Source of the DNA: an uncultured Bacteroidales bacterium
GTDB taxonomy: Bacteria > Bacteroidota > Bacteroidia > Bacteroidales > UBA932
Direction: 5' to 3'
DNA length: 64,000 nt
Assembly (NCBI GenBank): GCA_905235085.1
Contig: CAJOKD010000012.1
Coordinates: 8,308 to 72,307 of the forward strand
Both the position numbers and the translations under genes were made by a program. Position 1 is the first letter of the stretch. Every line of letters starts with the position of its first letter. Positions 6,729 to 22,437 of the stretch are shown in pieces. A model generated the notes under the pieces. It saw nothing but the letters and a program-made list of their open reading frames with translations. It was not told where the DNA came from and did not search any database.

Positions 6729-6741
6729 AAGCTGCCTGACA

Positions 6742-8502: not shown

Positions 8503-8523
8503 ACCCGGTAAACATCTTTTGAT

Positions 8524-9003
8524 ATGGCAGAAATAAAACTAGCCTGCGAGGTAATAAAGCAAGTTGAAGACATTTGCGAGAAGCACGGAAACAAACCGGG
8601 CGAACTGATCAACATACTCCACGAGTGCCAGGGTCTGCACGGCTACCTTCCTGAGGCGATGCAGAGAGTAATCGCCAGGAAGCTCAGCATCCCAGCCGCC
8701 CAGGTCTACGGCGTGGTGACTTTCTATTCATTCTTCACGATGACCCCGAAGGGACGCCATCCTATCTCCGTCTGCCTCGGCACCGCTTGCTATGTGCGTG
8801 GTTCCGAGAAGCTTCTGGAGGAGATCAAGAGGGTCCTCGGCATCGATGTCGGCGAGACTACTCCTGACGGGAAGTTCTCCCTTGACTGCCTGCGCTGCGT
8901 AGGTGCTTGCGGCCTTGCTCCGGTGATGATGATCGGAGAGAAAGTCTATGGCCGTATGGAGCCTCAGGACATCCGCAAGGTGCTCGAAGAATTCGCTGAC
9001 TGA
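8524..9003 (+). CDS. hydC: [FeFe] hydrogenase NuoE-like 2Fe-2S subunit
   Basis: 159 aa with the NuoE pattern CLGTACYVRGS...CLRCVGACGLAP. It directly follows hydA. Confidence 0.9.
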   Translation: MAEIKLACEVIKQVEDICEKHGNKPGELINILHECQGLHGYLPEAMQRVIARKLSIPAAQVYGVVTFYSFFTMTPKGRHPISVCLGTACYVRGSEKLLEEIKRVLGIDVGETTPDGKFSLDCLRCVGACGLAPVMMIGEKVYGRMEPQDIRKVLEEFAD

Positions 9004-9029
9004 TCCGCTCTGGCGGAACGACAACCAAC

Positions 9030-9055
9030 GAAGGCCGGCTTACCTGCCGGCCTTC
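9030..9055 (+). terminator. Hairpin terminator candidate after hydC
   Basis: GAAGGCCGGC-ttacct-GCCGGCCTTC forms a perfect 10-bp GC-rich stem, followed by attatt. It lies in the convergent gap between hydC and hydF. Confidence 0.5.
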
Positions 9056-9206
9056 ATTATTCTCAGGAAGATTCCTTCTCACTCCTCCGCGAGGACGACA
9101 GGTCTGCGGGCTGACGTCGGTGAAGGGCGGTGCTTTCCGCTGTTCCTTCGCCTCCTATTCGCCCGTAGACCTATCGCCCTCGCAGTGGTATGGATATGCA
9201 AATAAT

Positions 9207-10439
9207 TTATTCCGAAGGTATTACGACCTTAGGGAGGATACCTGTAAGATAGGCCATCGCGACCCCGTAGTTGGTCATCGGGATACCTTGCCTTCTGGCA
9301 GCTTCTACCCTGGAAAGAAGATGCTTGCGGGAGAATACGCATCCGCCGCAATGGATTACCATCGAATAATCCGAAAGATCCCGAGGGAAGTCCGTTCCTG
9401 AAGCTATATCGATATCGAGGATATCCTCCGGCGAAGCATCGGAGGCAAGTCCGAACCTGGCTGACAGTGACTTACGAAGCATCGCAGGCAGCTTGACCCT
9501 GCCTATGTCTTCACCTGCGGGTATGTGAGAGCAGGATTCGGCTATGAGGACCTTGTCCCCCGGACGGAGACGGTCGATGGCCTTTACACTTTCCACGAAA
9601 TAGGATATGTCTCCCTTGAACGCAGCCATCAAGATCGAGAATGATGTAAGACGAGTTCCCTGAGGAACTTCCGGAGCGACGGACTTGAATACCGAAGAAT
9701 CAGCTATAACAAGGTCCGGATTCCGTGACAGGGAATCGAGGGTCGCCTTGAATGACTCAGGAGTACAGTTTATGGAGACATTGCCGTTGTCAAGCAATTC
9801 CCGGATCACCCGTGCCTGGGGCATAATCAGCCTTCCCTTCGGAGCCTCGCTGTCCTGAGGCATAACGAGCACTACAATATCATCCTTGGAGACCAGGCCG
9901 CCAAGGAGGGACTGCTGGCCGAAATCGGCAGGAACCTTTTCGAGGAGGGCGTCCAGCAATGCAGGAATTCCCTGCCCAGTTGCAGCGCTCACTACCAAGG
10001 GCTTGACGCCCAGGTCCATAGCCAGAAGTTCGGCAGCCTGGGATGGATCGCCCAGACTGTCAGCCTTGTTCAGTACCACGAGGAACGGAGTACCTGAGGC
10101 CTTGAGATTCGAAATGGCAGGCTCTTCGACCAACTCGGTCACCGAATCCGCCACGCAGACAAGGACGACTATGTCAGCTTTCTCTATCTGTGCGTGGGTT
10201 GCAGACTCCCTGAAAGACCCGAGGGCGCCTACATCCCCGAGGCCGGCAGTGTCTATAAGCACACAGGCCCCCAGCCCTGGCAGTTCGATGGCTTTCCTGA
10301 CCGGATCAGTGGTAGTTCCGGGAATATCGGAAACGATTGATACTGATTGGCCGGCAATTGCATTGACCAATGACGACTTGCCTGCATTGCGCCTTCCGAT
10401 GAAAGCGATGCTGAGCCTATCCGAGCCCGGTGTTCCCAT
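9207..10439 (-). CDS. hydF: [FeFe] hydrogenase H-cluster maturation GTPase
   Basis: It carries the GTPase motifs GRRNAGKSSLVNAI and DTAG and the C-terminal cluster ligands ESCSH...IHCGGC. I trimmed the ORF-track start (10598) to ATG 10439, which abuts the hydG stop at 10441. Confidence 0.9.
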   Translation of the reverse strand: MGTPGSDRLSIAFIGRRNAGKSSLVNAIAGQSVSIVSDIPGTTTDPVRKAIELPGLGACVLIDTAGLGDVGALGSFRESATHAQIEKADIVVLVCVADSVTELVEEPAISNLKASGTPFLVVLNKADSLGDPSQAAELLAMDLGVKPLVVSAATGQGIPALLDALLEKVPADFGQQSLLGGLVSKDDIVVLVMPQDSEAPKGRLIMPQARVIRELLDNGNVSINCTPESFKATLDSLSRNPDLVIADSSVFKSVAPEVPQGTRLTSFSILMAAFKGDISYFVESVKAIDRLRPGDKVLIAESCSHIPAGEDIGRVKLPAMLRKSLSARFGLASDASPEDILDIDIASGTDFPRDLSDYSMVIHCGGCVFSRKHLLSRVEAARRQGIPMTNYGVAMAYLTGILPKVVIPSE

Positions 10440-10440
10440 A

Positions 10441-11859
10441 TCAGAATCTGAAATCACGTTTACCCTCCGAAATCTCATCCAGGTACTTCCTCGCACGAGT
10501 ACGAACCGGCTCCGGCACTTTCTCCATCTCCCTGCGGATAAGAGCCTGACCTTTCTCCCTCGTACCCGGCTGAGCATAGTCGAGGAGATACTCTTCAAGT
10601 GTCATCAACGCATTCGGAGTACAGCAATGATGGATCTTGCCTGCCTTGACGAGTTTCATAAACCTGTCGCCCGTCCTTCCTTCCCGGTAGCAAGCCGTAC
10701 AGAATGAAGGGATGTAATCCATACCTATCAGCCAGTCTATGACCTCGTCGAGCGACCTCAGGTCGTGCACGTCGAACTGGGCGGTCTCGTCGTGGCGTTC
10801 CGGAGTCGTATAGCCTCCGACTGATGTACGGGAGCCTCCGGATATCTGGGATATTCCGAGATCGAGCACCTTTTCACGAACCTTGCGTGACTCCCTCGTG
10901 GAGATGATCATTCCGGTGTACGGGGCTGATATCCTGATAATCGCCACTATCTTGCAGAATATTTCGTCCGGGAGCACGTTCGGGAAGTCCTTCAGGTCGA
11001 TGTCTTCCGCAGGGCAGAGGCGAGGTACGCTTATGGTATGCGGACCGACTCCGAACCGAGCTTCCAGATGCTCGGCGTGCATAAGCTGGCCCACAAGCTC
11101 GTAGCGATAATTGTTCAGGCCATAGAGCACTCCGCATCCAACATCGTCGCAACCGCCCTCCTGGGCCCTGTCCATAGCCTCGGTATGGTAGCAATAGTCA
11201 CTCTTCGGGCCGGTCGGGTGCAAAGCCTCGTAATTCTTCTTGTCGTATGTCTCCTGGAAGAGGATGTAGGTACCGATCCCGGCTTCGTGGAGCCTCCTGT
11301 AATTCTCTACCGTGGTAGCCGCTATGTTGACATTCACGCGCCTGATGGAACCGTTACCGGACTTCGTGGCATAGATGGTCTTGATGGATTCGAGAATATA
11401 GTCAAGCGGGTTGTGCACCGGATCCTCCCCCGCCTCGACGGCAATCCTCTTATGGCCCATATCCTCAAGCGCACGGACTTCCGCCGCTATCTCTTCCTGC
11501 GAGAGCTTCTTGCGTGGGATCTCACGGTTCTTTCCGTGATACGGGCAATATACGCAGCCGTTGATGCAATAATTTGAAAGATACAGCGGAGCGAACAGCA
11601 CGATGCGGTTGCCGTAAAGATCCTGCTTGATCTCCTTGGCAAGTTGGAATATCTTCTCGTTCAGGTCATCCAGTTCGCAGTCCATCAGGACGGCAGCCTC
11701 ACGGTGGGTAAGCCCCTTGACGGCGGCGGCCTTGTTCAGAATATCCTCTATCAATCCCCTGTTGCCCTTGTTCCTTTCGGCATATTCGAGGGTTTCCCGG
11801 ATTTCTTCGTCACAGATAAATTCTTCGGCGTGGCTGGACTTAGGATTATAAGTTGACAT
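10441..11859 (-). CDS. hydG: [FeFe] hydrogenase radical-SAM maturase
   Basis: 472 aa with the radical-SAM motif CINGCVYCPY, a HydG-like N-terminus (FICDEEIRETL) and a C-terminal Cys region. Confidence 0.92.
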   Translation of the reverse strand: MSTYNPKSSHAEEFICDEEIRETLEYAERNKGNRGLIEDILNKAAAVKGLTHREAAVLMDCELDDLNEKIFQLAKEIKQDLYGNRIVLFAPLYLSNYCINGCVYCPYHGKNREIPRKKLSQEEIAAEVRALEDMGHKRIAVEAGEDPVHNPLDYILESIKTIYATKSGNGSIRRVNVNIAATTVENYRRLHEAGIGTYILFQETYDKKNYEALHPTGPKSDYCYHTEAMDRAQEGGCDDVGCGVLYGLNNYRYELVGQLMHAEHLEARFGVGPHTISVPRLCPAEDIDLKDFPNVLPDEIFCKIVAIIRISAPYTGMIISTRESRKVREKVLDLGISQISGGSRTSVGGYTTPERHDETAQFDVHDLRSLDEVIDWLIGMDYIPSFCTACYREGRTGDRFMKLVKAGKIHHCCTPNALMTLEEYLLDYAQPGTREKGQALIRREMEKVPEPVRTRARKYLDEISEGKRDFRF

Positions 11860-14800
11860 ATTTGTTTATATCCTTGACTTTCTTTACAAGTTCCCTATAA
11901 TCTCCGGTATCCTTTCCGGAAGAGAAATTGCGCAGGTATAGATTCTCGGAAACGATGCGTTCATCCTCAGCTTCGAGGGTCAGCCTCATCAGGCAGGCTC
12001 CGTCAGGGATGTCGGCAACGTCGATGGCATCGACCGTGGAGTCTTCCGCAAGGTCGATGACGGCCGTCTTGGAATATACTTCCTCATCCTTCAGGTTCGT
12101 AAGGACTATCCTGACGGTCAGCGAGTCGATGTCGCATATAGTGGAATTTACAGCCTGGACGGTCATCGCGTAAGGATTGAACTGGACGTGCACCGGCTCG
12201 CAGGCCTTCATAACTCCGTAGAACGCAGCAGTCTTGTCGAAATAATAGTCGTAGGTCTGCCAGGCCAGGCTGGGCCAGGCGCTGTGCGACATCCATATCA
12301 GCAATCCCTTGCGGGCTACATTGTTCGCCTCGTACATTGCCCGGTAGCCGTCATAGTTGATGAACTGGGCATATTCAGAGAAGGACTCCGCTGTTTCCAG
12401 AGCCTCCTCCCCGAACCTGCGGGATACCATTCCGAGGAAAGCGGTATCGCCCTGGGCTCCGGTCCTGGTGAAATCGTGCTGCCCCCATACATCATCGGCA
12501 GGCCAGAGATGGTCCTCGCCGAAGGTGGCGGTAAGGCTTCCGAGGTTCATAATGGCAGGCATTCCCCTTTCAGTGTGGAACTTCAGGGCAGGCATTGCGA
12601 AATAAGAATCCGGCTCGACAGCCCTGTATGGTCCGTGCCCGGAGACACCGTCGTCAGCTGACGAAGGGATGTAGAGCATCCCCGGATGGTACTGGTTCAC
12701 CGTCTTGATTATCCTGGAATTCAGCATTGCTGGAGGATATCCTTCATTACGGCCGCAATACAGTGCGATGCTCGGATGACGGCGGATATTCTTGACATAA
12801 TCCTCGGCATTGGCGATGAACATATCTTCATCATCCGGATCCGGTCCGTCAGTAGGGTTGGCAAGCCAGAAGTCCTGCCATACCATAATCCCGTACTTGT
12901 CGCAGGCATCATAGAACTCTTCGTCTCCAGTCTGTCCCACCCAGTTACGTATCATATTGAGATTCATCTCCTTATGGTATGAGACAGCCTTGTCGTATTC
13001 ATCCGCCCCATAACGGAGGAGGAATTCGCTGAAGCCCCAGTTCCCACCCTTCGGGAGGAAACGATGGCCGTTCACATAGAGGTCGAGGCTCGTGCGCTCC
13101 CCGCTCCAGGTGACTTCACGTATACCGGCTTTCCAGGACAGGTCAGGATTGGTTGTGTCCAGAGTATCACCCTCTGCCACAAAGGTGAAGGCAGCGTCGT
13201 GCAGGGTAGGTTTCCCATAGCCGTTAGGCCACCAGAGTTCCACCTGACGGTTCAGGAGGTCAGGACATTCGGCCGGAGTGACAGTCACGGTCCTGGTTTC
13301 ACCAGGCACCAGGAATACGGCCTTGGAGAAAGCGATGCTGTCCATCGAACCGAATACGGTCCCCTTCACCGGTACATCAGAAAGATTGGTGACATCCACG
13401 GAGAAAGTCATCGAAGCCAGGGTGTCCGGCTGCGATATACGGCTCTGTACCATAGGATTGTCGAGTACCACGTCCTTTGCGTTGGTGAGACGGACATCGT
13501 TCCATATTCCTATCTCACGGCCCCTGACGGTCGGGATCCAGTCCCAGCCGACGGTAGCGTGGAAGGTAGGGTTGTCAGCTCCGAGTATACCGCCGTTGAA
13601 GTCGGGACTCTCAGCATTCTTCTCCTTCACCGCACCATAGTTGGCGTTCTTGATGACGTGTATTGCAAGAGTAGCGGTGCCGGTGGTGTCGAGCAGTTCA
13701 GTGACATCGAAACACCCGCGGATGAAGGCTCCGGCAATGTCTCCCAGGCGGTGTCCGTTGAAGAACACCTCCGCCTTCCAGTTGATTCCGTCAAGGTTCA
13801 GGATAGTCCTCGGACGGATGCTGTCGGTCGGGACAGGCATCGTGCCCCTGTACCAGAAATCACTGTTGAAGAACGACTCGGATATCTGATTGATATTGTC
13901 TGCCACGCCCGGATCAGGTACGGCGCCTGCTTCAAGATAGCTCGTGAGCACCGTTCCCGGGACTACCGCAGGCAGCCAGGCCGAGGCGTCATATCCGGTG
14001 CTGGATATCTCCTCGCCGGTACCTTCCACGTTGCCCGCCCTCTGGAGCTGCCAGGTGCCTGGTCCTATTCCGACCGTCTCAGCTGCAACCTCGATTCCTT
14101 TTTTGAAGAGAGCCTTCTTGTCAGGGACCTGGACACCTATGACCTGGATCTCACTCACGGCGAAATGGCCTGTGGAATCGGCTCCGGTCATCGACAGTCT
14201 GATATAGCGGCCCTTGCCTTTCTTTATCGGAACTACAGACAGAAGGGAATCTATTGCGGGAACCGGCATCAGCTTCTTCCATTTCTCACCATCCTCGGAT
14301 GACTCCAAGACAGCCAGCTTCGCCTTGTGTATCCAATGGATGTTCACCAGGTTGAATTGGCTGAGGGCTCCCAAGTCCACGGTGATCCACTGCGGCTGGT
14401 CGTCGGCGCTCATCCATACGCTGTTGAAATCCTCGGATGGAAGAGTGCTGAACCCACGTGCCTCCGCCGAAGCATAAGGACCTGTGTCATTGCTCTTGCG
14501 GAACCATTTCTCCGTGGTGAAGTCCACCGAATTGATCCTCCAGAATATTGTGCTGTCCTGCTTGAACTCGATCTTGAAGCGGTCGAAATCTTCGGCATCC
14601 TTGAGAGGAATGACAAGCTCAATATCCCGTGCATTGACGGTGATTTCTTCACCCTGCTTGTTAGGATCGGTCATCTTGATAGCCTGGTGGGCAACTCCCG
14701 GAAGTGAATATCCCTGAAGCCCACCGACCCTTACAAGGCTGTCGCCGCCGGCATAGCAGTCGATGGAATATCCCTTCGCCTTATCCTTGCAGACAAGCAT

Positions 14801-15154
14801 TCCCTTGATGCGGACGCAGTTGGCCGAGAATTTCTGCCCGCTCCACTGATAGTCCAGGAAATTTTCAGGGCCGTCCAGACGCGCTGCCGAGTGAGGACCG
14901 TAGTCAAGGGTCCATTCCTTCTCCCTTTTCGGAAGTTCTCCCGCGGCTGTGGAGACTTTTACCCAGGATGGTTCCACATCCTCTATGATACCGTCCGTGA
15001 CAAGCTGGGCGGTAAGGTTGTAGTCATAGTTGGACGATGCGATGGCTGTCTTGTTGAGCGCAAGGTTGATAAGAGATTCCTTATTGAGCTTGTTGCAGGC
15101 ACAAAGCAAAGCAACAACGGCAAGGAATGCTATAACCGGTGTCTTGGATTTCAT
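11846..15154 (-). CDS. Glycoside hydrolase family 2-like lipoprotein with N-terminal discoidin/CBM32-like domain(s)
   Basis: Lipobox LLCAC. An F5/8-type-C-like segment is present (QPQWITVDLG...FAVSEIQVIG). The GH2 core has WWPNGYGKPTLHD, NMIRNWVGQ and CGRNEG. Confidence 0.8.
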   Translation of the reverse strand: MKSKTPVIAFLAVVALLCACNKLNKESLINLALNKTAIASSNYDYNLTAQLVTDGIIEDVEPSWVKVSTAAGELPKREKEWTLDYGPHSAARLDGPENFLDYQWSGQKFSANCVRIKGMLVCKDKAKGYSIDCYAGGDSLVRVGGLQGYSLPGVAHQAIKMTDPNKQGEEITVNARDIELVIPLKDAEDFDRFKIEFKQDSTIFWRINSVDFTTEKWFRKSNDTGPYASAEARGFSTLPSEDFNSVWMSADDQPQWITVDLGALSQFNLVNIHWIHKAKLAVLESSEDGEKWKKLMPVPAIDSLLSVVPIKKGKGRYIRLSMTGADSTGHFAVSEIQVIGVQVPDKKALFKKGIEVAAETVGIGPGTWQLQRAGNVEGTGEEISSTGYDASAWLPAVVPGTVLTSYLEAGAVPDPGVADNINQISESFFNSDFWYRGTMPVPTDSIRPRTILNLDGINWKAEVFFNGHRLGDIAGAFIRGCFDVTELLDTTGTATLAIHVIKNANYGAVKEKNAESPDFNGGILGADNPTFHATVGWDWIPTVRGREIGIWNDVRLTNAKDVVLDNPMVQSRISQPDTLASMTFSVDVTNLSDVPVKGTVFGSMDSIAFSKAVFLVPGETRTVTVTPAECPDLLNRQVELWWPNGYGKPTLHDAAFTFVAEGDTLDTTNPDLSWKAGIREVTWSGERTSLDLYVNGHRFLPKGGNWGFSEFLLRYGADEYDKAVSYHKEMNLNMIRNWVGQTGDEEFYDACDKYGIMVWQDFWLANPTDGPDPDDEDMFIANAEDYVKNIRRHPSIALYCGRNEGYPPAMLNSRIIKTVNQYHPGMLYIPSSADDGVSGHGPYRAVEPDSYFAMPALKFHTERGMPAIMNLGSLTATFGEDHLWPADDVWGQHDFTRTGAQGDTAFLGMVSRRFGEEALETAESFSEYAQFINYDGYRAMYEANNVARKGLLIWMSHSAWPSLAWQTYDYYFDKTAAFYGVMKACEPVHVQFNPYAMTVQAVNSTICDIDSLTVRIVLTNLKDEEVYSKTAVIDLAEDSTVDAIDVADIPDGACLMRLTLEAEDERIVSENLYLRNFSSGKDTGDYRELVKKVKDINKYVNL

Positions 15155-15190
15155 ATTGCTGGTGATTATGAGGCCGAGGTCTGGACAGAG

Positions 15191-15275
15191 CGGAGGATAC
15201 AGGATTCGAACCTGTGGGGCCTTTCAGCCGACTTGTTTTCGAGACAAGCACCATAAACCACTCGGACAATCCTCC
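15191..15275 (-). tRNA. tRNA-Ser (anticodon CGA)
   Basis: The 85-nt minus-strand sequence GGAGGATTGTCCGAG...CTTGT-CTCGAAA-ACAAG...ACAGGTTCGAATCCTGTATCCTCCG folds by hand. It has a 7-bp acceptor stem, a 5-bp anticodon stem with CGA, a long variable arm and a TTCGAAT T-loop. Confidence 0.9.
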
Positions 15276-15288
15276 GTTTTTTCATTTG

Positions 15289-15296
15289 CAAAAATA
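15289..15296 (-). promoter_or_regulatory. Bacteroidota -7 box (TATTTTTG) upstream of tRNA-Ser
   Basis: The reverse complement of caaaaata matches TAnnTTTG, 14 nt upstream of the tRNA 5' end. Confidence 0.45.
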
Positions 15297-15400
15297 GTAA
15301 TTTTACCCGGAATTCAGAATAATTTGCGAAATTTGAGAAAACAATATTCCGAAATGGATTCCCAAGCATTCTCAAATACAGATGGCTGGCCTGGCTGGTC

Positions 15401-17380
15401 TTGATCCCCGTTGCAGTCAACCTGGCGGGGCATCTTGCCGGCACTCCTGCACTTACCGTTACATCCAAACCGCTGCTGATGCCTCTCCTCGCCCTTACGT
15501 CCTGGATCATAATGAGTTCCGGTGGCGTACGTGGCCGCAGGAAGGCCACGATTGTGCTTGCACTGCTATTCGGGGCACTGGGAGACATCCTGCTGATGCT
15601 GCGTGGAACCTCCTGGTTCCTGGCCGGAATGCTTGCTTTCCTGATCGGACATATATTCTATTTCAGTACCCTTCCGACTCCTTGGAAAACCAAAGGTTTC
15701 TGGGAGACCGCCTTCTCGACGATCCTCCTTGCCGCTCTCCTGGTATTCGTGGTAACCTTCATGAAGAGATTCGGCCTCGACGGGGTTATGGGGTTTGCAG
15801 TCACGGTGTATGCCTGCGCTTTCGCTTTCCTGGTCCACGGTTGCGTGATGGCGGCGATTAGCCGCAGAAGGCCGCTGTACCTTCTGACTGCACTCGGCTT
15901 CGCGATATTCGCATTCTCCGACCTGCTCGTGGCCACCGGGGTATTCACGGATATCCACATCCCAAAGAAGGGCTTCCTGGTAATGTCCACATACATACTT
16001 GCGCAGGCGGTCGTTTCGCTGTCTCTCGCTTCCGAGCTCAGGGATGAACTCCTGAATACGGAATGCGGCAGGAGACTGCGCAGGCTAAATGCCCTTATGG
16101 ACGGTCTCAAGGCCAGGGAGGAGCAATTCTATCAGGCTTTCGACAAAGACTTCGGAAAGGGAGCGTTCGAGACATACACCACCGAGACCGGTTATCTCTA
16201 CAACAGCATCAAGCATACTGCGAACCATCTTGGAGACTGGATGCAGCCTTCTGCCGCCAAGACTCCTTTCGTCCTGTGGCCGGCAAAAAGCAGGATTCTC
16301 TCCGAACCCTACGGGAAAGTCCTGATAATAGGCCCTTTCAACTACCCGCTCAACCTGGTCATAGCCCCACTGGCGGCCGCTCTGGCCGCAGGGAACACCG
16401 CTGTCGTCAAACCTTCTCGCCAGACGCCCCACGTTTCCTCCCTTATCAAGTCGATGCTGGAAGAAGCTTTCCCTTCAGACGTGGTGGAAGTAGTGGACGG
16501 GAGTATATCGAACGAGGAACTGCTCGCCAGGGAATATGATTACATATTCTTCACCGGTAGTCCCAAGGTCGGGAAGATCGTGATGGAGGCGGCCTCCAAG
16601 CATCTTACCCCTGTGACGCTTGAACTCGGTGGAAAGAGTCCGGCCATAGTCTGCCCGAGCGCAGATGTCCGGCTTGCCTGCGAGCGTATAGCCAAGGGCA
16701 AGTTCCTGAACGCAGGACAGACTTGCGTGGCCCCCGATTATGTCCTTGTGCACGAGTCCCTCCACGATGCCTTCATTTCAACTATGAAGGAAGTCGTAAG
16801 GGAGTATTTCGGAGATATCTCGACTAGGCCTTCGGAGATGACCCTGATGGCGACACGAAGGCATTTCGACAGGGTTGCAGGGCTGATACCTTCTGGCACT
16901 GAAGGTCAAGGCCGTATAGCCATCGGAGGAAATACCGATCCTTCAATCAATTACATCGCGCCGACAGTTATCGACCATTGTTCCTGGGACGAGCCGGCGA
17001 TGCAGGAAGAGATTTTCGGACCGGTGCTCCCTGTACTCACATATTCGGATTTGAAGACCGAAGTTATCGACAAGCTCCACGATTCAAGGCCGCTGTCCCT
17101 GTATGTATTCTCGAGGAAGTGCAAGGAAAAGAAGGCCATCCTGGAAGGGATACGGTTCGGGGGCGGATGCGTGAATGAAACGATTATGCATCTCGGCAAC
17201 GAGAACCTTCCATTCGGCGGGATCGGTGAATCAGGGATGGGAGCATACCACGGCCGTACCGGCTTCGATACCTTCTCCCACAGGAAGTCGGTTCTGTACA
17301 AGTCTTCCTGGCTTACCTTCGACTTCCTCAAGCCACCGTATTCCAACAAATTGAAACTGATCAGGAAAATATACAAGTAA
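15401..17380 (+). CDS. Fusion protein: YhhN/lysoplasmalogenase-family membrane domain + class-3 aldehyde dehydrogenase
   Basis: Residues 1-212 are polytopic and YhhN-like (SKPLLMPLL, LFGALGDILL, FLIGHIFY, AFSDLLVA). From about residue 215 the protein is ALDH3-like: PFNYPLNL, FTGSPKVGKIV, ELGGKSP, the catalytic Cys in GQTCVAPDY, and EEIFGPVLP. The listed start is a TTG, so the true start is uncertain. Confidence 0.85.
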   Translation: MIPVAVNLAGHLAGTPALTVTSKPLLMPLLALTSWIIMSSGGVRGRRKATIVLALLFGALGDILLMLRGTSWFLAGMLAFLIGHIFYFSTLPTPWKTKGFWETAFSTILLAALLVFVVTFMKRFGLDGVMGFAVTVYACAFAFLVHGCVMAAISRRRPLYLLTALGFAIFAFSDLLVATGVFTDIHIPKKGFLVMSTYILAQAVVSLSLASELRDELLNTECGRRLRRLNALMDGLKAREEQFYQAFDKDFGKGAFETYTTETGYLYNSIKHTANHLGDWMQPSAAKTPFVLWPAKSRILSEPYGKVLIIGPFNYPLNLVIAPLAAALAAGNTAVVKPSRQTPHVSSLIKSMLEEAFPSDVVEVVDGSISNEELLAREYDYIFFTGSPKVGKIVMEAASKHLTPVTLELGGKSPAIVCPSADVRLACERIAKGKFLNAGQTCVAPDYVLVHESLHDAFISTMKEVVREYFGDISTRPSEMTLMATRRHFDRVAGLIPSGTEGQGRIAIGGNTDPSINYIAPTVIDHCSWDEPAMQEEIFGPVLPVLTYSDLKTEVIDKLHDSRPLSLYVFSRKCKEKKAILEGIRFGGGCVNETIMHLGNENLPFGGIGESGMGAYHGRTGFDTFSHRKSVLYKSSWLTFDFLKPPYSNKLKLIRKIYK

Positions 17381-17385
17381 AGCCT

Positions 17386-18441
17386 ATGCAAACAGAGGTC
17401 AGGAACGGCAGCAGGAGCTACGTATGGCTCCTCCACATTGCTATCTGGGCGGTATTGTTCGGGATGCCGTTCTTTTCCCCACGCCTTGGTCATCCCCTCC
17501 ACGGCGGAGTCAACTATTCAAGGTTCGTCCCTGTATTGGTCTCGTTCTTCATCGTATTCTATGTCAATTACTTCCTGTTGATCAAGAAGTATCTTTACAA
17601 CAGGAAGTTCGGACTGTTCATTCTGTGGAACATCCTGCTGATCGCCCTGGTCAGCTTCCTGGTGCACCTGGTGTTCAAGTACGCTTTTCCAGTCGCAGCC
17701 GACATCAGGCCGCACAGGCGTCAGGTCCCGCTCATCAGGCATCTCAGCCAGATAGTCCGCAACTCCGTCAGCTATCTCGGCATAGTCTGCGTCGCGGTCG
17801 CGATAAGGATGACCGGGAGATGGTACAGGGATGAAAACAAACGGAAGGAGACCGAGATGCTCAAGGCCGAGACCGAACTCGCCAACCTCAAGAGCCAGAT
17901 CAATCCGCATTTCCTCTTCAATACCCTCAACAACATTTATTCGTTGATCGGCATAGACCAGGCTCAGGCTCAGGAGGCCGTCCACGATCTAAGCGGGATG
18001 ATGCGGTACCTCCTGTACGAGAGCGAGCAGCCTACGGTTTCCCTGGCAAGCGAATCCGCATTCCTGAAAGATTATGTCAAGCTGATGAGTCTCAGGCTGC
18101 CGGAAGACCGGGTCAGGACGGAAGTTTCCCTACCGGAGGATTCCGGCACCAGGATTGCCCCGATGCTGTTCATCCCACTGGTCGAGAATGCCTTCAAGCA
18201 CGGCATCAGCGACACTGAAGGATCCTTCGTCAAGATCGACCTTCACGAAGACGGAGACTCTGTGGTCTGCCGCGTGGAGAACAGTTGTTTCCCGAAGGAC
18301 GACAAGGACAGGAGCGGTTCAGGAATAGGACTCAGGAACCTCAGCCGACGCCTGGATATGCTCTATCACGGCAAGTACTCTTTCGAGTACGGGCCAGTCA
18401 GTGACAAATATCAGAGTATCTTGAAAATCAAGACTATATGA
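17386..18441 (+). CDS. Sensor histidine kinase, LytS/YehU-type (His_kinase + HATPase)
   Basis: It has N-terminal TM helices, LKSQINPHFLFNTLNNI and an ATPase G-box (GSGIGLRNL). It overlaps the downstream LytTR regulator by 4 nt. Confidence 0.85.
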   Translation: MQTEVRNGSRSYVWLLHIAIWAVLFGMPFFSPRLGHPLHGGVNYSRFVPVLVSFFIVFYVNYFLLIKKYLYNRKFGLFILWNILLIALVSFLVHLVFKYAFPVAADIRPHRRQVPLIRHLSQIVRNSVSYLGIVCVAVAIRMTGRWYRDENKRKETEMLKAETELANLKSQINPHFLFNTLNNIYSLIGIDQAQAQEAVHDLSGMMRYLLYESEQPTVSLASESAFLKDYVKLMSLRLPEDRVRTEVSLPEDSGTRIAPMLFIPLVENAFKHGISDTEGSFVKIDLHEDGDSVVCRVENSCFPKDDKDRSGSGIGLRNLSRRLDMLYHGKYSFEYGPVSDKYQSILKIKTI

Positions 18442-19166
18442 ATACTGTAAGCTGCATTGTCGTAGATGACGAGCCGTTAGCCGTGAAGCTGATAGTATCC
18501 TACGTGGAAAAGACTCCTTTCCTCGAACTGAAAGGGAGCTTCACCAGCGGGAAGTCTGCTTTCGCCTTCCTTCAGGAGACTCCAGTCGACCTGCTGTTCT
18601 GCGATATCCAGATGCCCAACCTGAGCGGTATGGACTTGTCCAAGATGCTCCCCGAGCACACGAAGGTGATCTTCACCACTGCCTTCAGCCAGTACGCGGT
18701 GGAAGGTTTCAAGGTCCACGCCCTGGACTATCTGCTGAAACCGATCTCTTACGAGGACTTCCTCTCTGCAGCCAAGCATGCCGCCAAGGTCATCTCCGGT
18801 AAACCAGCCGCAACCGCAGCAAGGGACGATACACCCAAGAGCATATTCGTAAAGACCGAATATAAGCTGCAGCAGATCGAGCTCGACAAGATCACATTCA
18901 TCGAAGGGATGAAGGATTACGTGAAGATCCATCTGGACGACGGTTCGGATCCGGTGCTCTCCCTGATGAGGCTCAAGACTCTGGAAGAGAAACTACCTAA
19001 GGACAGATTCGTGCGTGTCCAGAAGTCATTCATTGTCAGGATACCCAAGATCGAGGCGATCGAAAGGAACCATATAGTTATCGGGAAAGACAGAATCCCG
19101 ATAGGAGAAACCTACCGGGATTATCTGTACGAGGTTCTTTCAGGGACTTCCCTACTTCTGGAATAG
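18438..19166 (+). CDS. LytR/AlgR-family response regulator (REC + LytTR)
   Basis: The receiver domain shows VDDEPLA...CDIQMPNLSG. The LytTR domain shows FVRVQKSFIV. Confidence 0.9.
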   Translation: MNTVSCIVVDDEPLAVKLIVSYVEKTPFLELKGSFTSGKSAFAFLQETPVDLLFCDIQMPNLSGMDLSKMLPEHTKVIFTTAFSQYAVEGFKVHALDYLLKPISYEDFLSAAKHAAKVISGKPAATAARDDTPKSIFVKTEYKLQQIELDKITFIEGMKDYVKIHLDDGSDPVLSLMRLKTLEEKLPKDRFVRVQKSFIVRIPKIEAIERNHIVIGKDRIPIGETYRDYLYEVLSGTSLLLE

Positions 19167-19739
19167 AGCCGTCACTATTCCTTCAATCACCTGAGGGAAG
19201 TGCTCCATTTCGAGAATATGCTCCTTCGCGGCTATGTCGTCAGGAGTGTCCTCTGGGTCGATAGGGGTGCTGAACTGGGCGATTATTTCTCCGCCGTCGA
19301 CATCACGGCTTACCCAGTGCACCGTCATCCCGGTTTCTTTCTCACCCGCAGCCTTGACGGCCTCGTGGACGTGATGGCCGTACATTCCCATTCCGCCGTA
19401 TTTCGGCAAAAGGGCCGGATGGAGATTGACCATCCTGTGGTCATATTCCTCGATCAGGAAATCCGGGACCACCAATAGGAAGCCGGCCAGCACGATGAAA
19501 TCTACCGAATATTCCTTCAGCAGGGGCAGCATCACTTCCTTGTCGTTGAACCTGGATTTCGGTACCACCACGGAAGGCACCCCGAGACGCTGGGCCCTGG
19601 CGATGGCACCGGCATTTGCCTTGTTGCTGACTACGAGTACTGTACGAACCTTCTCAGAACCTTCGAAATAGCGGATTATATTCTCACAGTTGGTACCTCC
19701 GCCCGATACGAAAATCGCCATGTTGACCATATCCATCAA
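19152..19739 (-). CDS. purN: Phosphoribosylglycinamide formyltransferase
   Basis: Motifs MAIFVSGGGTN, VLAGFL and NLHPALLPKYGG are present. The true start is probably an internal Met (19730 or 19721). Confidence 0.9.
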   Translation of the reverse strand: MMDMVNMAIFVSGGGTNCENIIRYFEGSEKVRTVLVVSNKANAGAIARAQRLGVPSVVVPKSRFNDKEVMLPLLKEYSVDFIVLAGFLLVVPDFLIEEYDHRMVNLHPALLPKYGGMGMYGHHVHEAVKAAGEKETGMTVHWVSRDVDGGEIIAQFSTPIDPEDTPDDIAAKEHILEMEHFPQVIEGIVTALFQK

Positions 19740-22429
19740 TCTTTCTTCCCATCCTCGGGCAGTTGCTTGACATAGACGTCCTGCTGAGGGAACGGTATCT
19801 CTATTCCGTTGTCATTGAGCGCCTTGTAAATGCGCTCATTAGCCGTTGCGATGTAGGCGTAGCGCTGCTCCACAAGGACGTACTGCTTGACGGTCAGGTT
19901 GACACTGTTGTCGCCGAAACCGGTGAGTGCAACCTGTATGCCGTAGCTCGGCTTCACCATCTCCCGCCCGAACTTGTCTTCCTTGCAAAGAGGCTGCAAG
20001 GCCTTGGTTATGACTTTCCTCGCCTTGTCCACATCGGTACCGTAAGCAACTCCTACAGGGATGGTTATGTACTCGTAGGAATCGCTCTTGGTCAGGTTCT
20101 TGAAAGTCTTAGCGAAAAGGGTCGTATTCGGGAACGCGATCAAGCTGCCGTCCACAGCCTTTATCGTAGTGGTCTGGTAGCTTATGTTGTCCACCGTTCC
20201 CCTTATCCCGTCACATTCTACAGTATCTCCGACACGCATCCTGCCGGACATCAGCTGGACTCCATAGAAGAAGTTGTTGAGTATGTCCTTCATCGCGAAT
20301 CCCAGACCTGCGGCAAGTCCTGCGGTAACCACCGACAGCGAAGAGGTCGGAATCTTCATCAGGATGATTGTCACGATCAGGTACAAGCCCCATCCGATGA
20401 GACCTATCACATTGTTGGCAAGGGTGAGGTTGACTTCGTTCTCCCTGACCAGGCCAGTGACGGACTTGCTGACCATCGAACGTACCTTGAAGATACGGTA
20501 AAGCGCTTTCGTGAGATATATAAGATAACGGAATATGAAGAAAAGGGCGATTGCAACTATCACCATATACATCGAAACCTTGATCCACTGCGTATCCAGG
20601 AAAGGAGCAAAAAAGGCGTTCATACATATCTCAGTCAGGTCGAACACCTTCGACGCCATATACAGGCAAAGCGGTATGGACAGCAGGAAAAGCAAAGGTA
20701 TCAGCACCAGATCCACCAGGTCATAGAACCAGGTTACAAGGACATATGCTCCCTTCTCCTTGCCCACATCAGTGAAGTGCTTCATCCTGTATGCCCGGAC
20801 CCGCTTGTCGATCCTCCTGTAACGGTACTTGGAGAGAAGGTCCTTGATGGCTATGATGATTTGAAGGACAGTAAGCTGGAATATCCACCAGATGTAGACC
20901 TGGAGTCCCATCAGCACATAACCGAAGACGGAAAGAGCAAAGGTCACTACTGTGACTGCAAGAGAAACGACAGCGAAATACTTGTCTATCTTCGGGACTT
21001 TCCGGGCATTGTTCAGGAATGCCAGGATCTGCCATATTCCGAACAACAGCAGTACAGGCGGGAACAGCAGGGTTATCAGGCTGTTCGGGATGAACATTAT
21101 CCTGAATGTAATGATCGCCAGACCCAGCAGCATAACCGGGGCATAGAGCCGCAGTCCTTTGTTGACCTGGGCTCCGGTAAAGCGGATCAGTATGGACGTC
21201 AGGATGGCGATGAGCAGTATCGAGAACTCCACCAGCAGGCTGGAGGCCATCTTGAAGAAATTGGTCCCGATCCTGCCGGTATGGCGCGCAACCACGGTAG
21301 CTGCGACGAACAGGACAACCGCTGCCAGCATAATGATAGCCAGCTCACGATTCTCGAAACTCTGGGACTTGAACAGTTTCACCCTGCGCTTGAGCAACTT
21401 GATGACAAAGAAGCTCAAGACTATGGCCAGCACGAGGTAGATGAGGATAATGAAGGAGAATCCGACTACTTTCGGGCCTCTCCAGTCGCTGTGCACCTTG
21501 TCGTTGAAATAGTCCCTGCCATATTTGTCATTGAAGTCTGTGGCGGCGCTGCGTGAGAACTGCCCCAGGTGGGTGAGAACTTGCCAGTAGTTCCGCTGGC
21601 CGTCCACGAATATCTTCTTCTGTACGATCTTGTATCGCTCCTGGGCATAATCGTATGCCTCCTTTAGACGCTTGTTGGTGGTCTCATAGTGGGTGCTGTC
21701 CTCAACCATATGGTCCCTAAGGTCCGTATACATCTTGAGGAGTTTCGATGCATAGAACAGGCAACTGTCACGGTCCTGCATCGAAAGGCTGTCCAGCTCG
21801 AAAGTAAGGTGATGGTGGTCTTCGCCTTCCTCCACGAGCCCGGCTTCGAAGCCTTCTGCATCCATACCGACTTCGTGGTGGTGATCCTTGTGGTCCGGAT
21901 CGTCCGCGTGCTGGCGAGCATAGGAAAGGTTAGGAAGGATGCGCCGGGAAAGATTCATCGCCAGCGAATCCAGCATCCCGGGACCGAGGCTGTCCGGGAA
22001 GTCCACCAATTCCGGCGGAAGACTCTTAAGGGTTTTCACCAGACGGTCATACCGCTCGATCTCGATATTGAAATACGAGATAATGTTGTCGAACGGCATT
22101 TTGTTCTGGGTGAATCCGTTATACTGGTCCGTGACCTGCCGCAGGGCATAAGTGAGGTCGAAGGTGAAATCCTGCTTCTGGGAATACAGCATCAGGGAAA
22201 GCTCGTTGCAGGTACGGATCAGTCCTACGAGACGTTCGTGCTGCTTTTCATCCTGTTTTTCGAAACGGAGTTGGTTGCGCTCCATCTCGTTGTAAGCCTT
22301 GCAAAGTTCATAACGAAGGACCTGGAGCGTCTGCGCCAGATCACGTTCATTGAACACGGCCCACGACGGTGTGGCCGCCGACAAGGCAAGCACCACCGCC
22401 AATATCCATTTCCCGAGTCTTTTCATCAT
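19736..22429 (-). CDS. Large mechanosensitive channel, MscS family (MscK-like)
   Basis: A signal peptide (MMKRLGKWILAVVLALSAATPSWA) is followed by a long periplasmic helical region and about 10 TM helices. The MscS core reads GRMRVGDTVECDGIRGTVDNISYQTTTIKAVDGSLIAFPN. I trimmed the start from 22507 to 22429 to clear the upstream GH3 gene. Confidence 0.8.
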   Translation of the reverse strand: MMKRLGKWILAVVLALSAATPSWAVFNERDLAQTLQVLRYELCKAYNEMERNQLRFEKQDEKQHERLVGLIRTCNELSLMLYSQKQDFTFDLTYALRQVTDQYNGFTQNKMPFDNIISYFNIEIERYDRLVKTLKSLPPELVDFPDSLGPGMLDSLAMNLSRRILPNLSYARQHADDPDHKDHHHEVGMDAEGFEAGLVEEGEDHHHLTFELDSLSMQDRDSCLFYASKLLKMYTDLRDHMVEDSTHYETTNKRLKEAYDYAQERYKIVQKKIFVDGQRNYWQVLTHLGQFSRSAATDFNDKYGRDYFNDKVHSDWRGPKVVGFSFIILIYLVLAIVLSFFVIKLLKRRVKLFKSQSFENRELAIIMLAAVVLFVAATVVARHTGRIGTNFFKMASSLLVEFSILLIAILTSILIRFTGAQVNKGLRLYAPVMLLGLAIITFRIMFIPNSLITLLFPPVLLLFGIWQILAFLNNARKVPKIDKYFAVVSLAVTVVTFALSVFGYVLMGLQVYIWWIFQLTVLQIIIAIKDLLSKYRYRRIDKRVRAYRMKHFTDVGKEKGAYVLVTWFYDLVDLVLIPLLFLLSIPLCLYMASKVFDLTEICMNAFFAPFLDTQWIKVSMYMVIVAIALFFIFRYLIYLTKALYRIFKVRSMVSKSVTGLVRENEVNLTLANNVIGLIGWGLYLIVTIILMKIPTSSLSVVTAGLAAGLGFAMKDILNNFFYGVQLMSGRMRVGDTVECDGIRGTVDNISYQTTTIKAVDGSLIAFPNTTLFAKTFKNLTKSDSYEYITIPVGVAYGTDVDKARKVITKALQPLCKEDKFGREMVKPSYGIQVALTGFGDNSVNLTVKQYVLVEQRYAYIATANERIYKALNDNGIEIPFPQQDVYVKQLPEDGKKD

Positions 22430-22437
22430 TCTCTGCT

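What the first reader, a model, noticed from the sequence alone, without database searches (positions are those of the whole stretch)
15401..17380. Rosetta-stone fusion of a YhhN (lysoplasmalogenase-family) membrane domain to a class-3 fatty-aldehyde-type dehydrogenase
Seen in the sequence:
- Residues 1 to about 212 are a polytopic YhhN-type domain (SKPLLMPLL, GALGDILL, FLIGHIFY, AFSDLL).
- With no linker the ORF continues into a complete ALDH3-like enzyme with NAD-binding FTGSPKVGK, the general base in ELGGKSP and the catalytic Cys in GQTCVAPDY.

Established knowledge:
- The YhhN/TMEM86 family includes lysoplasmalogenases, which hydrolyse the vinyl-ether bond of lysoplasmalogen and release a fatty aldehyde.
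- ALDH3-type fatty aldehyde dehydrogenases oxidise such aldehydes in animals.
- Many strict anaerobes make plasmalogens.

Inference: the fusion would channel the toxic aldehyde product of vinyl-ether lipid cleavage straight into oxidation. That amounts to a two-step plasmalogen turnover or salvage module in one membrane-anchored polypeptide. An adjacent LytS/LytTR pair (17386-19166) starts 5 nt downstream and could be co-transcribed.
Basis: partly seen in the sequence, partly recalled or inferred. Interest (0 to 1): 0.65.

Follow-up and report, generated by a model that had tools for sequence, protein, structure and literature searches.

The report
Fused vinyl-ether lipid hydrolase and aldehyde dehydrogenase
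A group of uncultured rumen bacteria has joined a membrane enzyme that cuts vinyl-ether (plasmalogen-type) lipids to the enzyme that detoxifies the fatty aldehyde it releases; the fusion is real and conserved but untested, and this window's copy lacks four bases at its start.

Summary
ORF 15401-17380 encodes a YhhN domain (Pfam 88.5 bits) running without a linker into a complete class-3 aldehyde dehydrogenase (298.6 bits).

It is not an assembly artefact. All 120 best database hits and 16 species-representative genomes carry the same fusion. All are Bacteroidales MAGs, nearly all labelled rumen or ruminant gut, in or near Ca. Cryptobacteroides (GTDB genus RC9).

All eight residues mutated in human TMEM86A/B, seven of which proved important for activity, and the ALDH Cys/Glu/Asn/Glu set are invariant. 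Both halves evolve under purifying selection. Predicted topology puts the dehydrogenase in the cytoplasm, and the junction length never varies.

Best reading: a bifunctional lysoplasmalogenase / fatty-aldehyde dehydrogenase, matching the separate mammalian TMEM86 and ALDH3A2 steps. Activity, substrate and channelling are untested.

Two corrections:
- The true start is the ATG at 15354 (676 aa). The window lacks 4 nt (CAAG) after 15373 that five public runs and an otherwise identical scaffold all have. The TTG "start" at 15401 would cut half of TM1.
- The LytS/LytTR pair is co-directional only in this subclade. Elsewhere it is divergent, distant or not found.

No paper describing the fusion was found. 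NCBI names it only "aldehyde dehydrogenase family protein". Moderate interest.

The parts
15354..15356 (+). True ATG start codon of the fusion gene. It is out of frame in the window as given: its frame ends at TGA 15402-15404.
   Evidence: P0001 is 100% identical to the window ORF but 676 aa long, starting MDSQAFSKKYRWLAWLV. The L001 alignment shows the ATG in frame once CAAG is restored.
15373..15374 (+). Site of the 4-nt (CAAG) deletion that is specific to this window.
   Evidence: CAAG is present here in L001 and in contigs of runs X1-X5. It is the only difference from L001 in 22,031 nt.
15401..17380 (+). Main ORF as readable in the window: 659 aa from TTG, YhhN-ALDH3 fusion, stop TAA at 17378-17380.
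15458..16024 (+). YhhN (PF07947) membrane domain, window residues 20-208. The intact protein has eight helices. Catalytic-set codons: K23 at 15467-15469, G61/D62 at 15581-15586, H84 at 15650-15652, G166 at 15896-15898, S173/D174 at 15917-15922, Y198 at 15992-15994.
   Evidence: Pfam 88.5 bits. The residues are invariant in 40 fusions, and 7 of 8 are invariant or nearly so in a diverse YhhN alignment. Eight helices by hydropathy and in the AlphaFold model.
15968..16114 (+). Junction: the TM8 helix (P0001 residues 207-236) runs with a one-residue break into the first helix of the ALDH half (238-255). There is no flexible linker and the length is fixed.
   Evidence: Secondary structure of the model. 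The Y215-to-N331 distance is 116 in all 102 fusions where both motifs were found, and no indels occur between residues 140 and 514.
16034..17293 (+). Class-3 aldehyde dehydrogenase domain (PF00171), window residues 212-631. Key codons: Asn 16340-16342, general-base Glu 16622-16624, catalytic Cys 16724-16726.
   Evidence: Pfam 298.6 bits. PDB 6K0Z scores 427 bits at E = 1e-126, followed by ALDH3A1 and ALDH3A2. The residues are invariant.
17294..17377 (+). C-terminal tail (PPYSNKLKLIRKIYK), which aligns to the end of S. aureus AldH. In that enzyme the region forms a mobile helix over the substrate tunnel.
   Evidence: The alignment to 6K0Z runs through query residue 659 and chain residue 465. 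The alpha13 helix is described in PMC12410373. The model shows helix 665-675 at low confidence.
17386..18441 (+). Membrane histidine kinase (PF06580, LytS-type), 5 nt downstream of the fusion gene.
   Evidence: It lies near the fusion in 11 of 19 loci, in three different arrangements.
18438..19166 (+). Response regulator with a LytTR DNA-binding domain. Its gene overlaps the kinase gene by 4 nt.
15190..15275 (-). tRNA-Ser(CGA). It bounds the 78-nt region upstream of the true start codon.

Best explanation
The gene encodes one polypeptide with two catalytic halves. In its intact form it is 676 aa, starting at the ATG at 15354.

The N-terminal half is an eight-helix YhhN/TMEM86-type membrane hydrolase. 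It would cleave the sn-1 vinyl-ether bond of a lysoplasmalogen-type lipid and release a long-chain fatty aldehyde plus a glycerophospho-headgroup.

Its last transmembrane helix continues directly into a cytoplasmic class-3 aldehyde dehydrogenase. That half would take the aldehyde from the membrane and oxidise it with NAD(P)+ to a fatty acid. The YhhN half therefore also anchors the dehydrogenase at the membrane, a role that a C-terminal tail plays in mammalian ALDH3A2.

The net effect is to convert a membrane-damaging lysolipid into a usable fatty acid without releasing a reactive aldehyde.

Shown here: the architecture, intact catalytic residues, topology, selection, a single origin, and restriction to rumen-type Bacteroidales.

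Inferred, not shown: the substrate, the activity, any channelling, and whether the lipid comes from the cell itself or from the plasmalogen-rich rumen community.

In this window the copy carries a 4-nt deletion at codons 7-8. This is most likely an assembly or consensus error. If it is real, it would remove half of TM1.
For: Domains and fusion:
- Both Pfam domains score far above their cut-offs.
- The fusion recurs in all 120 best hits and in 16 GTDB species representatives.

YhhN half:
- The eight proposed catalytic residues, seven of which mutagenesis showed to be important in TMEM86A/B (PMC11994398), correspond to K40, G78, D79, H101, G183, S190, D191 and Y215.
- Their spacing is almost the same as in TMEM86A. 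They are invariant in 40 fusions and conserved across standalone YhhN proteins down to 25% identity.

ALDH half:
- The best solved relatives are all class 3. They are led by S. aureus AldH 6K0Z, which acts on a long lipophilic aldehyde, and include human fatty aldehyde dehydrogenase 4QGK.
- N331, E425, C459 and E554 are invariant.
- The Cys aligns to the Ser at the same position of the GQT-x-VAPDY motif in 6K0Z.

Selection and structure:
- dN/dS is about 0.14 for the YhhN half and 0.05-0.07 for the ALDH half.
- There are eight helices, and the K+R count is 17 on the inside against 6 on the outside. This gives N-in/C-in and a cytoplasmic ALDH.
- The junction length is invariant.

Biological context:
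- Characterised YhhN proteins from human, Legionella and M. tuberculosis are all lysoplasmalogenases (PMC9052158).
- In mammals the resulting aldehydes are oxidised by fatty aldehyde dehydrogenase (PMC9471318).
- Rumen bacterial lipids are rich in plasmalogens (PMC3587585).
Against: - There is no biochemical evidence for any member of this clade.
- Only four YhhN proteins have been characterised, so other substrates in this branch cannot be excluded.
- The window has no plasmalogen-synthesis gene, and I could not search the rest of the genome.
- No case was found of a standalone YhhN gene next to a standalone ALDH3 gene. That would have been independent support for a functional link.
- The structure model is too weak in the ALDH half (pTM 0.55) to show whether the ALDH substrate tunnel faces the membrane domain.
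- No RNA data were found.
- Two standalone YhhN genes nest inside the fused clade, so the ALDH half may be dispensable in some lineages.
Confidence: 0.6

Rival explanations
1. Same architecture but a different lipid. The YhhN half releases an aldehyde from some other substrate, such as another enol-ether, acetal or modified lipid of Bacteroidales or plant origin. The ALDH3 half oxidises that product, and plasmalogens are not the physiological substrate.
For: - Only four YhhN proteins have been characterised. E. coli carries a YhhN gene, after which the family is named (established knowledge), yet it has no plasmalogens (PMC3137066).
- The closest solved ALDH acts on a C30 apocarotenoid aldehyde, not on a fatty aldehyde.
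- NCBIfam's best model is a benzaldehyde dehydrogenase, scoring below its cut-off.
- The window has no plasmalogen-synthesis gene.
Against: - All eight lysoplasmalogenase residues are strictly kept.
- Every YhhN protein assayed so far is specific for lysoplasmalogen.
- The rumen is rich in plasmalogens.
Confidence: 0.25
2. The YhhN half has lost catalysis and serves only as a membrane anchor for an ALDH3 that detoxifies membrane aldehydes from any source.
For: - Mammalian ALDH3A2 needs a membrane anchor (established knowledge).
- The ALDH half is better conserved than the YhhN half: 75% against 61% median identity.
Against: - The eight catalytic-set residues are invariant across the clade.
- dN/dS of 0.14 is far below neutral.
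- An anchor would not need eight helices with buried Asp, His and Lys residues conserved.
Confidence: 0.05
3. In this particular genome the gene is a 5'-frameshifted pseudogene or weakened allele. On this reading the CAAG deletion is real. Translation could start only at TTG 15401, giving a protein without an intact TM1.
For: - The window as given lacks CAAG, and the ATG frame stops at 15402-15404.
- An M. tuberculosis YhhN form lacking TM1 is inactive (PMC9052158).
Against: - Five independent runs carry CAAG. One of them shares 99% of the sampled words of 15100-17500 and shows no substitutions over 15100-15700. An otherwise identical 22-kb scaffold carries it too.
- No assembly shows the deletion.
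- The rest of the ORF has no lesions.
Confidence: 0.12
4. The fusion is an artefact: two separate genes joined by a sequencing or assembly error.
For: None found. One related locus (L013) does show an apparently artefactual read-through at the other end of the gene.
Against: - The same continuous ORF appears in 120 protein clusters from many samples and in 16 species representatives.
- The junction sequence is conserved and its length is invariant.
Confidence: 0.01

Closest known systems
YhhN/TMEM86 lysoplasmalogenases: human/rat TMEM86B and TMEM86A, Legionella pneumophila Lpg1991, M. tuberculosis Rv1401
   Same: - Pfam PF07947 across the full profile.
- Eight transmembrane helices.
- All eight proposed active-site residues, with almost the same spacing as in TMEM86A.
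- The expected chemistry is vinyl-ether hydrolysis that releases a fatty aldehyde.
   Different: - Known members are standalone proteins of about 200-260 aa. Here the last helix continues into a 440-aa dehydrogenase.
- Identity to distant family members is only about 25-30%.
- No activity data exist.
- NCBIfam has no model for this half.
Class-3 aldehyde dehydrogenases: S. aureus AldH (PDB 6K0Z), human ALDH3A2/FALDH (4QGK), ALDH3A1 (3SZA)
   Same: - Complete ALDH3 fold by sequence (E = 1e-126 to 6K0Z).
- Catalytic Cys, Glu and Asn and the Rossmann motif are present.
- The C-terminal tail aligns to the mobile helix that covers the substrate tunnel in S. aureus AldH.
- Relatives act on long lipophilic aldehydes.
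   Different: - ALDH3A2 is anchored to the membrane by a C-terminal tail. This protein has no hydrophobic C-terminus and is anchored at its N-terminus by a catalytic membrane domain.
- The first roughly 30 residues of a standalone ALDH3 are replaced by the extension of TM8.
- It scores below NCBIfam's cut-off for MdlD benzaldehyde dehydrogenase (399 against 550).
Mammalian two-enzyme route: lysoplasmalogenase (TMEM86A/B), then fatty aldehyde dehydrogenase (ALDH3A2)
   Same: The same two enzyme families act in the same order on the same expected intermediate (PMC9471318).
   Different: In mammals these are two separate ER membrane proteins. Here they form one polypeptide in the bacterial inner membrane.

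Membership tests
YhhN / TMEM86 lysoplasmalogenase family (PF07947) | Match to the family profile above the curated cut-off | tested here: met
   88.5 bits against a cut-off of 25.6, covering profile positions 3-181 of 182.
YhhN / TMEM86 lysoplasmalogenase family (PF07947) | Eight transmembrane helices, including an intact TM1 | tested here: met
   The 676-aa form has eight hydrophobic segments and eight model helices at pLDDT 75-89. Caveat: in the window as given, starting at TTG, TM1 is cut to about 14 residues.
YhhN / TMEM86 lysoplasmalogenase family (PF07947) | Eight conserved putative active-site residues (TMEM86A K43, G81, D82, H104, G182, S189, D190, Y213) | tested here: met
   K40, G78, D79, H101, G183, S190, D191 and Y215 are invariant in 40 fusions. 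Seven of the eight are invariant or nearly so in a 20-sequence diverse alignment. The match to TMEM86A rests on motif and spacing, not on a direct alignment to the human proteins.
YhhN / TMEM86 lysoplasmalogenase family (PF07947) | [quoted passage not shown] | not testable with these tools
   This needs an enzyme assay.
Aldehyde dehydrogenase class 3 (ALDH3) | Aldedh profile match, with the closest relatives being class-3 enzymes | tested here: met
   PF00171 scores 298.6 bits. The top 12 PDB sequences are all ALDH3-type, at 266-427 bits. Class 1/2 enzymes score about 160 bits or less.
Aldehyde dehydrogenase class 3 (ALDH3) | Catalytic Cys, general-base Glu, oxyanion Asn and Rossmann GxxxxG motif | tested here: met
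   C459, E425, N331, E554, G403 and G408 are invariant. The Cys aligns to the Ser at the same position of the GQT-x-VAPDY motif in 6K0Z.
Aldehyde dehydrogenase class 3 (ALDH3) | Long-chain fatty aldehyde as substrate (ALDH3A2-like) | not testable with these tools
   Only indirect support: fusion to YhhN, and similarity to enzymes that act on lipophilic aldehydes.
Aldehyde dehydrogenase class 3 (ALDH3) | ALDH3A2-type C-terminal transmembrane anchor | tested here: not met
   The C-terminus has no hydrophobic stretch. The highest 19-residue hydropathy in the ALDH half is internal, starting at residue 335.
NAD(P)-dependent benzaldehyde dehydrogenase MdlD (NF045701) | Score above the equivalog cut-off | tested here: not met
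   399.2 bits against a cut-off of 550.
Operon with the LytS/LytTR two-component system | Conserved co-directional adjacency across fusion-bearing genomes | tested here: not met
   Of 19 loci: co-directional in L001, L005 and L006 only; divergent in 6; about 4.7 kb away in 2; not found in the other 8, of which 4 have PurN directly upstream of the fusion.

The most novel reading that the evidence does not exclude
This is the first natural bifunctional lysoplasmalogenase / fatty-aldehyde dehydrogenase. The rigidly joined halves would pass the aldehyde within the membrane interface. The uncultured rumen RC9/Cryptobacteroides lineage would use it to harvest or detoxify vinyl-ether lysolipids shed by the plasmalogen-rich rumen community. 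This would be a plasmalogen-catabolic trait acquired once, by appending an ALDH3 to the resident YhhN gene.
Probability: 0.4. Interest if true: 0.55.

Novelty: new variant of a known kind. Interest (0 to 1): 0.45.

Why it matters
- **Evidence for bacterial YhhN function.** Plasmalogen breakdown is much less studied than its synthesis (PMC11994398). In bacteria only two YhhN enzymes have been assayed, both from pathogens that do not make plasmalogens. A conserved natural fusion to a fatty-aldehyde-type dehydrogenase is independent genomic evidence that bacterial YhhN proteins produce an aldehyde in vivo.
- **A new ecological setting.** It points to vinyl-ether lipid catabolism in an abundant, uncultured rumen lineage.
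- **A practical use.** A single protein that converts lysoplasmalogen into NAD(P)H signal would be a self-contained coupled assay or sensor. Current lysoplasmalogenase assays need an added coupling enzyme.
- **An annotation gap.** NCBI names these proteins only "aldehyde dehydrogenase family protein", because no NCBIfam model covers the YhhN half.

Tried and rejected
- **Frameshift or stop at the domain junction:** rejected. The ORF is continuous here and in all homologs.
- **Solved structure for the YhhN half:** none found by sequence, even at E <= 10.
- **First genome scan with a 20-sequence YhhN alignment:** failed because it had no conserved stretch to search with. Repeated with 8 closer sequences.
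- **Unfused YhhN next to ALDH3 in related genomes:** none within +-6 kb of 28 standalone loci.
- **ALDH remnant downstream of the closest standalone YhhN (L051):** none.
- **RNA evidence for expression or co-transcription:** no runs listed.
- **Inter-domain geometry from AlphaFold:** not usable. pTM is 0.55 and the ALDH half is poorly modelled from a shallow alignment.
- **plsA/plsR-type genes in the window:** none among the Pfam-scanned ORFs.
- **Literature on the fusion:** searches for YhhN with aldehyde dehydrogenase, for PF07947, and for lysoplasmalogenase with fatty aldehyde dehydrogenase and fusion found no description. The Legionella YhhN paper (PMC4282143) is not held.
- **Slippage as the cause of the CAAG deletion:** rejected from reading the sequence. 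The context has no tandem repeat or homopolymer that would produce a 4-nt loss.
Full report
**1. Observation**

The ORF 15401..17380 (+), 659 aa from a TTG, exists as described, and all quoted motifs are in its translation.
- Pfam places YhhN (PF07947) on residues 20-208 at 88.5 bits (cut-off 25.6).
- Pfam places Aldedh (PF00171) on residues 212-631 at 298.6 bits.
- NCBIfam sees only aldehyde dehydrogenase models. The best is MdlD at 399 bits, below its cut-off of 550. It has no model at all for the YhhN half.
- The histidine kinase gene starts 5 nt after the stop and overlaps the LytTR regulator gene by 4 nt.

**2. The start codon**

The 100%-identical database protein P0001 is 676 aa and begins MDSQAFSKKYRWLAWLV. 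Its scaffold L001 has CAAG after the position equivalent to window 15373, and the window lacks these bases.
- This is the only difference in 22,031 aligned bases.
- Logan contigs of five runs all carry CAAG or an equivalent 4-nt insertion, and none shows the deletion.
- One of those runs, X1, shares 99% of the sampled words of 15100-17500 and shows no substitutions over the 601-nt stretch laid.
- With CAAG, the ATG at 15354 is in frame. Without it, that frame stops at 15402-15404, and only the TTG at 15401 can open the main ORF. That would leave about 14 residues of TM1.
- An M. tuberculosis YhhN form lacking TM1 is inactive (PMC9052158).

I conclude that the biological protein is 676 aa. The window's lesion is most likely an assembly or consensus error. 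A real null or weakened allele is the less likely alternative. Residue numbers below follow P0001 (window ORF number + 17).

**3. The fusion is real and has a single, narrow origin**

- All 120 best hits carry both Pfam domains. The named ones are [quoted passage not shown].
- I searched 1.84 billion 50%-identity representatives with the YhhN half alone. Only one of the best 150 (P0086, 678 aa) is a fusion. Almost all the others are standalone-sized proteins of about 200-300 aa, apart from a few shorter fragments. The whole fused family therefore collapses into one cluster.
- A scan of GTDB species representatives gave 46 YhhN loci, of which 16 are fusions. All are Bacteroidales MAGs. Nearly all are labelled as rumen or ruminant-gut (yak, roe deer, water buffalo, goat, cattle), and one is named Ca. 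Cryptobacteroides sp.
- Ca. Cryptobacteroides is the name for GTDB genus RC9, family UBA932 (PMC8035907).
- Every YhhN at 50% identity or more to the query is fused. Relatives at 39-48% are standalone and have no ALDH3 within 6 kb. These include Alistipes sp. CAG:435 and CAG:514, Muribaculaceae MAGs, human-gut MAGs and Ca. Cryptobacteroides faecihippi.

Synteny shows that the standalone genes sit in the same neighbourhood as the fusion. They lie beside the GH2-like gene or beside PurN-MscS. The ALDH3 was therefore appended to the resident YhhN gene.

In an NJ tree of YhhN halves, the fused sequences form one clade. Its outgroup is the standalone gene of Ca. C. faecihippi. Two standalone genes (L051, L027) nest inside the clade without any ALDH remnant. 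That may be a secondary loss, but the tree has no bootstrap support.

**4. Both halves look catalytically competent**

YhhN half:
- Eight residues were proposed as catalytic in TMEM86A/B. Alanine mutagenesis showed all but one (G81 in TMEM86A / G87 in TMEM86B) to be important (PMC11994398).
- Their counterparts here are K40, G78, D79, H101, G183, S190, D191 and Y215. The spacing is nearly identical to TMEM86A.
- All eight are invariant in 40 fusions. Seven are invariant or nearly so in a diverse YhhN alignment reaching 25% identity.

ALDH half:
- The closest solved structures are all class 3. They are S. aureus 4,4'-diaponeurosporen-aldehyde dehydrogenase 6K0Z (427 bits), P. putida benzaldehyde dehydrogenase, ALDH3A1 and human fatty aldehyde dehydrogenase 4QGK.
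- N331, E425, C459, E554 and the glycines of the Rossmann motif are invariant.
- C459 aligns to the Ser at the same position of the GQT-x-VAPDY motif in 6K0Z.
- The conserved general-base Glu argues for a hydrolytic, acid-forming ALDH, not a CoA-acylating one (inference from established ALDH mechanism).

Selection: dN/dS against the two unsaturated relatives is 0.14 for the YhhN half and 0.05-0.07 for the ALDH half.

**5. How the halves are joined**

- Hydropathy gives eight segments. K+R counts are 17 in the loops predicted to be cytoplasmic and 6 in the others. This means N-in/C-in and a cytoplasmic ALDH with access to NAD(P)+.
- The AlphaFold model is confident for the YhhN half (pLDDT 75-89) and shows eight helices. 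The last, 207-236, continues after a one-residue break into helix 238-255 of the ALDH half.
- The ALDH half is poorly modelled and pTM is 0.55, so I claim no inter-domain geometry.
- The junction length is invariant: Y215 to N331 is 116 residues in all 102 sequences where both motifs were found. All length variation lies at the N-terminus and in one ALDH surface loop.
- The ALDH half has no C-terminal hydrophobic anchor of the ALDH3A2 kind. The YhhN half therefore also serves as the anchor.

**6. Mechanism proposed**

The YhhN half hydrolyses the vinyl ether of a lysoplasmalogen-type lipid in the inner membrane. The neutral fatty aldehyde is then captured by the membrane-apposed ALDH3 half and oxidised to a fatty acid.

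This mirrors the mammalian sequence of TMEM86A/B followed by fatty aldehyde dehydrogenase (PMC9471318).

The source of the lipid is open:
- Rumen bacteria are rich in plasmalogens (PMC3587585).
- The M. tuberculosis enzyme is thought to protect against exogenous lysolipids.
- The window has no plsA/plsR-type gene.
- Only about 15% of sequenced Bacteroidota have such genes (PMC10191378).

Salvage or detoxification of community lipids is therefore at least as plausible as turnover of the cell's own plasmalogens.

**7. The LytS/LytTR pair**

Among 19 fusion loci:
- It is co-directional and immediately downstream only in the window's subclade (L001, L005, L006).
- It is divergent, about 250 nt upstream, in six loci.
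- It lies about 4.7 kb away in two loci.
- It was not found in the other eight. In four of these PurN lies directly upstream of the fusion. The other four have a different or short context.

The fused gene has been inverted relative to a conserved HK-LytTR-PurN-MscS block. The pair is a syntenic neighbour and a possible regulator, not a conserved operon partner.

**8. Novelty and score**

Both enzyme families and the two-step pathway are known. The domain architecture is present in public databases but is named only as an aldehyde dehydrogenase. No paper describing it was found.

I rate it a new variant of a known kind, of moderate interest (0.45). It is a tidy, testable Rosetta-stone link and a potentially useful single-protein assay enzyme. 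It is not a mechanistic surprise.

Noticed in passing
window 15373-15374: A 4-nt CAAG deletion at codons 7-8 of the fusion gene. It is the only difference from public scaffold L001 in 22,031 nt, and it is absent from the contigs of all five public runs that cover the site.
   Followed up: yes
window 51905-53866 (+): One 653-aa ORF combines a Na+/Pi cotransporter (two Na_Pi_cotrans repeats), a PhoU domain and a C-terminal OmpR-type winged-helix DNA-binding domain (Trans_reg_C). A transporter fused to a DNA-binding domain is unusual.
   Followed up: no
window 4776-11859: HydABC-type [FeFe]-hydrogenase genes (NuoF-like, Fe_hyd_lg_C, 2Fe-2S thioredoxin-like), followed on the minus strand by HydF and a radical-SAM (BATS) maturase. 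This marks a strict anaerobe.
   Followed up: partly
window 15190-15275 (-): tRNA-Ser(CGA) lies between the GH2-like gene and the fusion gene. It leaves only 78 nt of upstream region before the true ATG.
   Followed up: partly
L013 759-3794: In this rumen MAG the fusion ORF lacks its stop. It reads on into a downstream secreted glycosidase-like gene, signal peptide included, giving 1011 aa. This is probably an assembly or point error and not a triple fusion.
   Followed up: partly
L051 5001-5888; L027 6001-6819: Standalone YhhN genes sit in the same MscS-PurN locus, with long low-complexity loop insertions. They group inside the fused clade in an NJ tree and have no ALDH remnant downstream. 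This may be a secondary loss of the ALDH half.
   Followed up: partly
P0001 residues 514-519 (window about 16892-16909) and homologs such as P0068 and P0082: Up to about 50 of the 120 fusion homologs carry an insertion of up to 61 aa in one ALDH surface loop. It is low-complexity (Ser/Gly/Ala/Pro-rich) in the examples read (P0068, P0082). The window's protein has the short form.
   Followed up: no
window 11846-22507 compared with L002, L003 and L022-L038: The YhhN-containing gene has been inverted relative to a conserved GH2-like / HK-LytTR / PurN / MscS neighbourhood in different subclades. The neighbours keep their order.
   Followed up: partly
window 47386-49050 (+): A 554-aa ORF in which only the C-terminal 200 aa match a family (PRK/uridine kinase). 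The N-terminal roughly 290 aa have no Pfam match.
   Followed up: no
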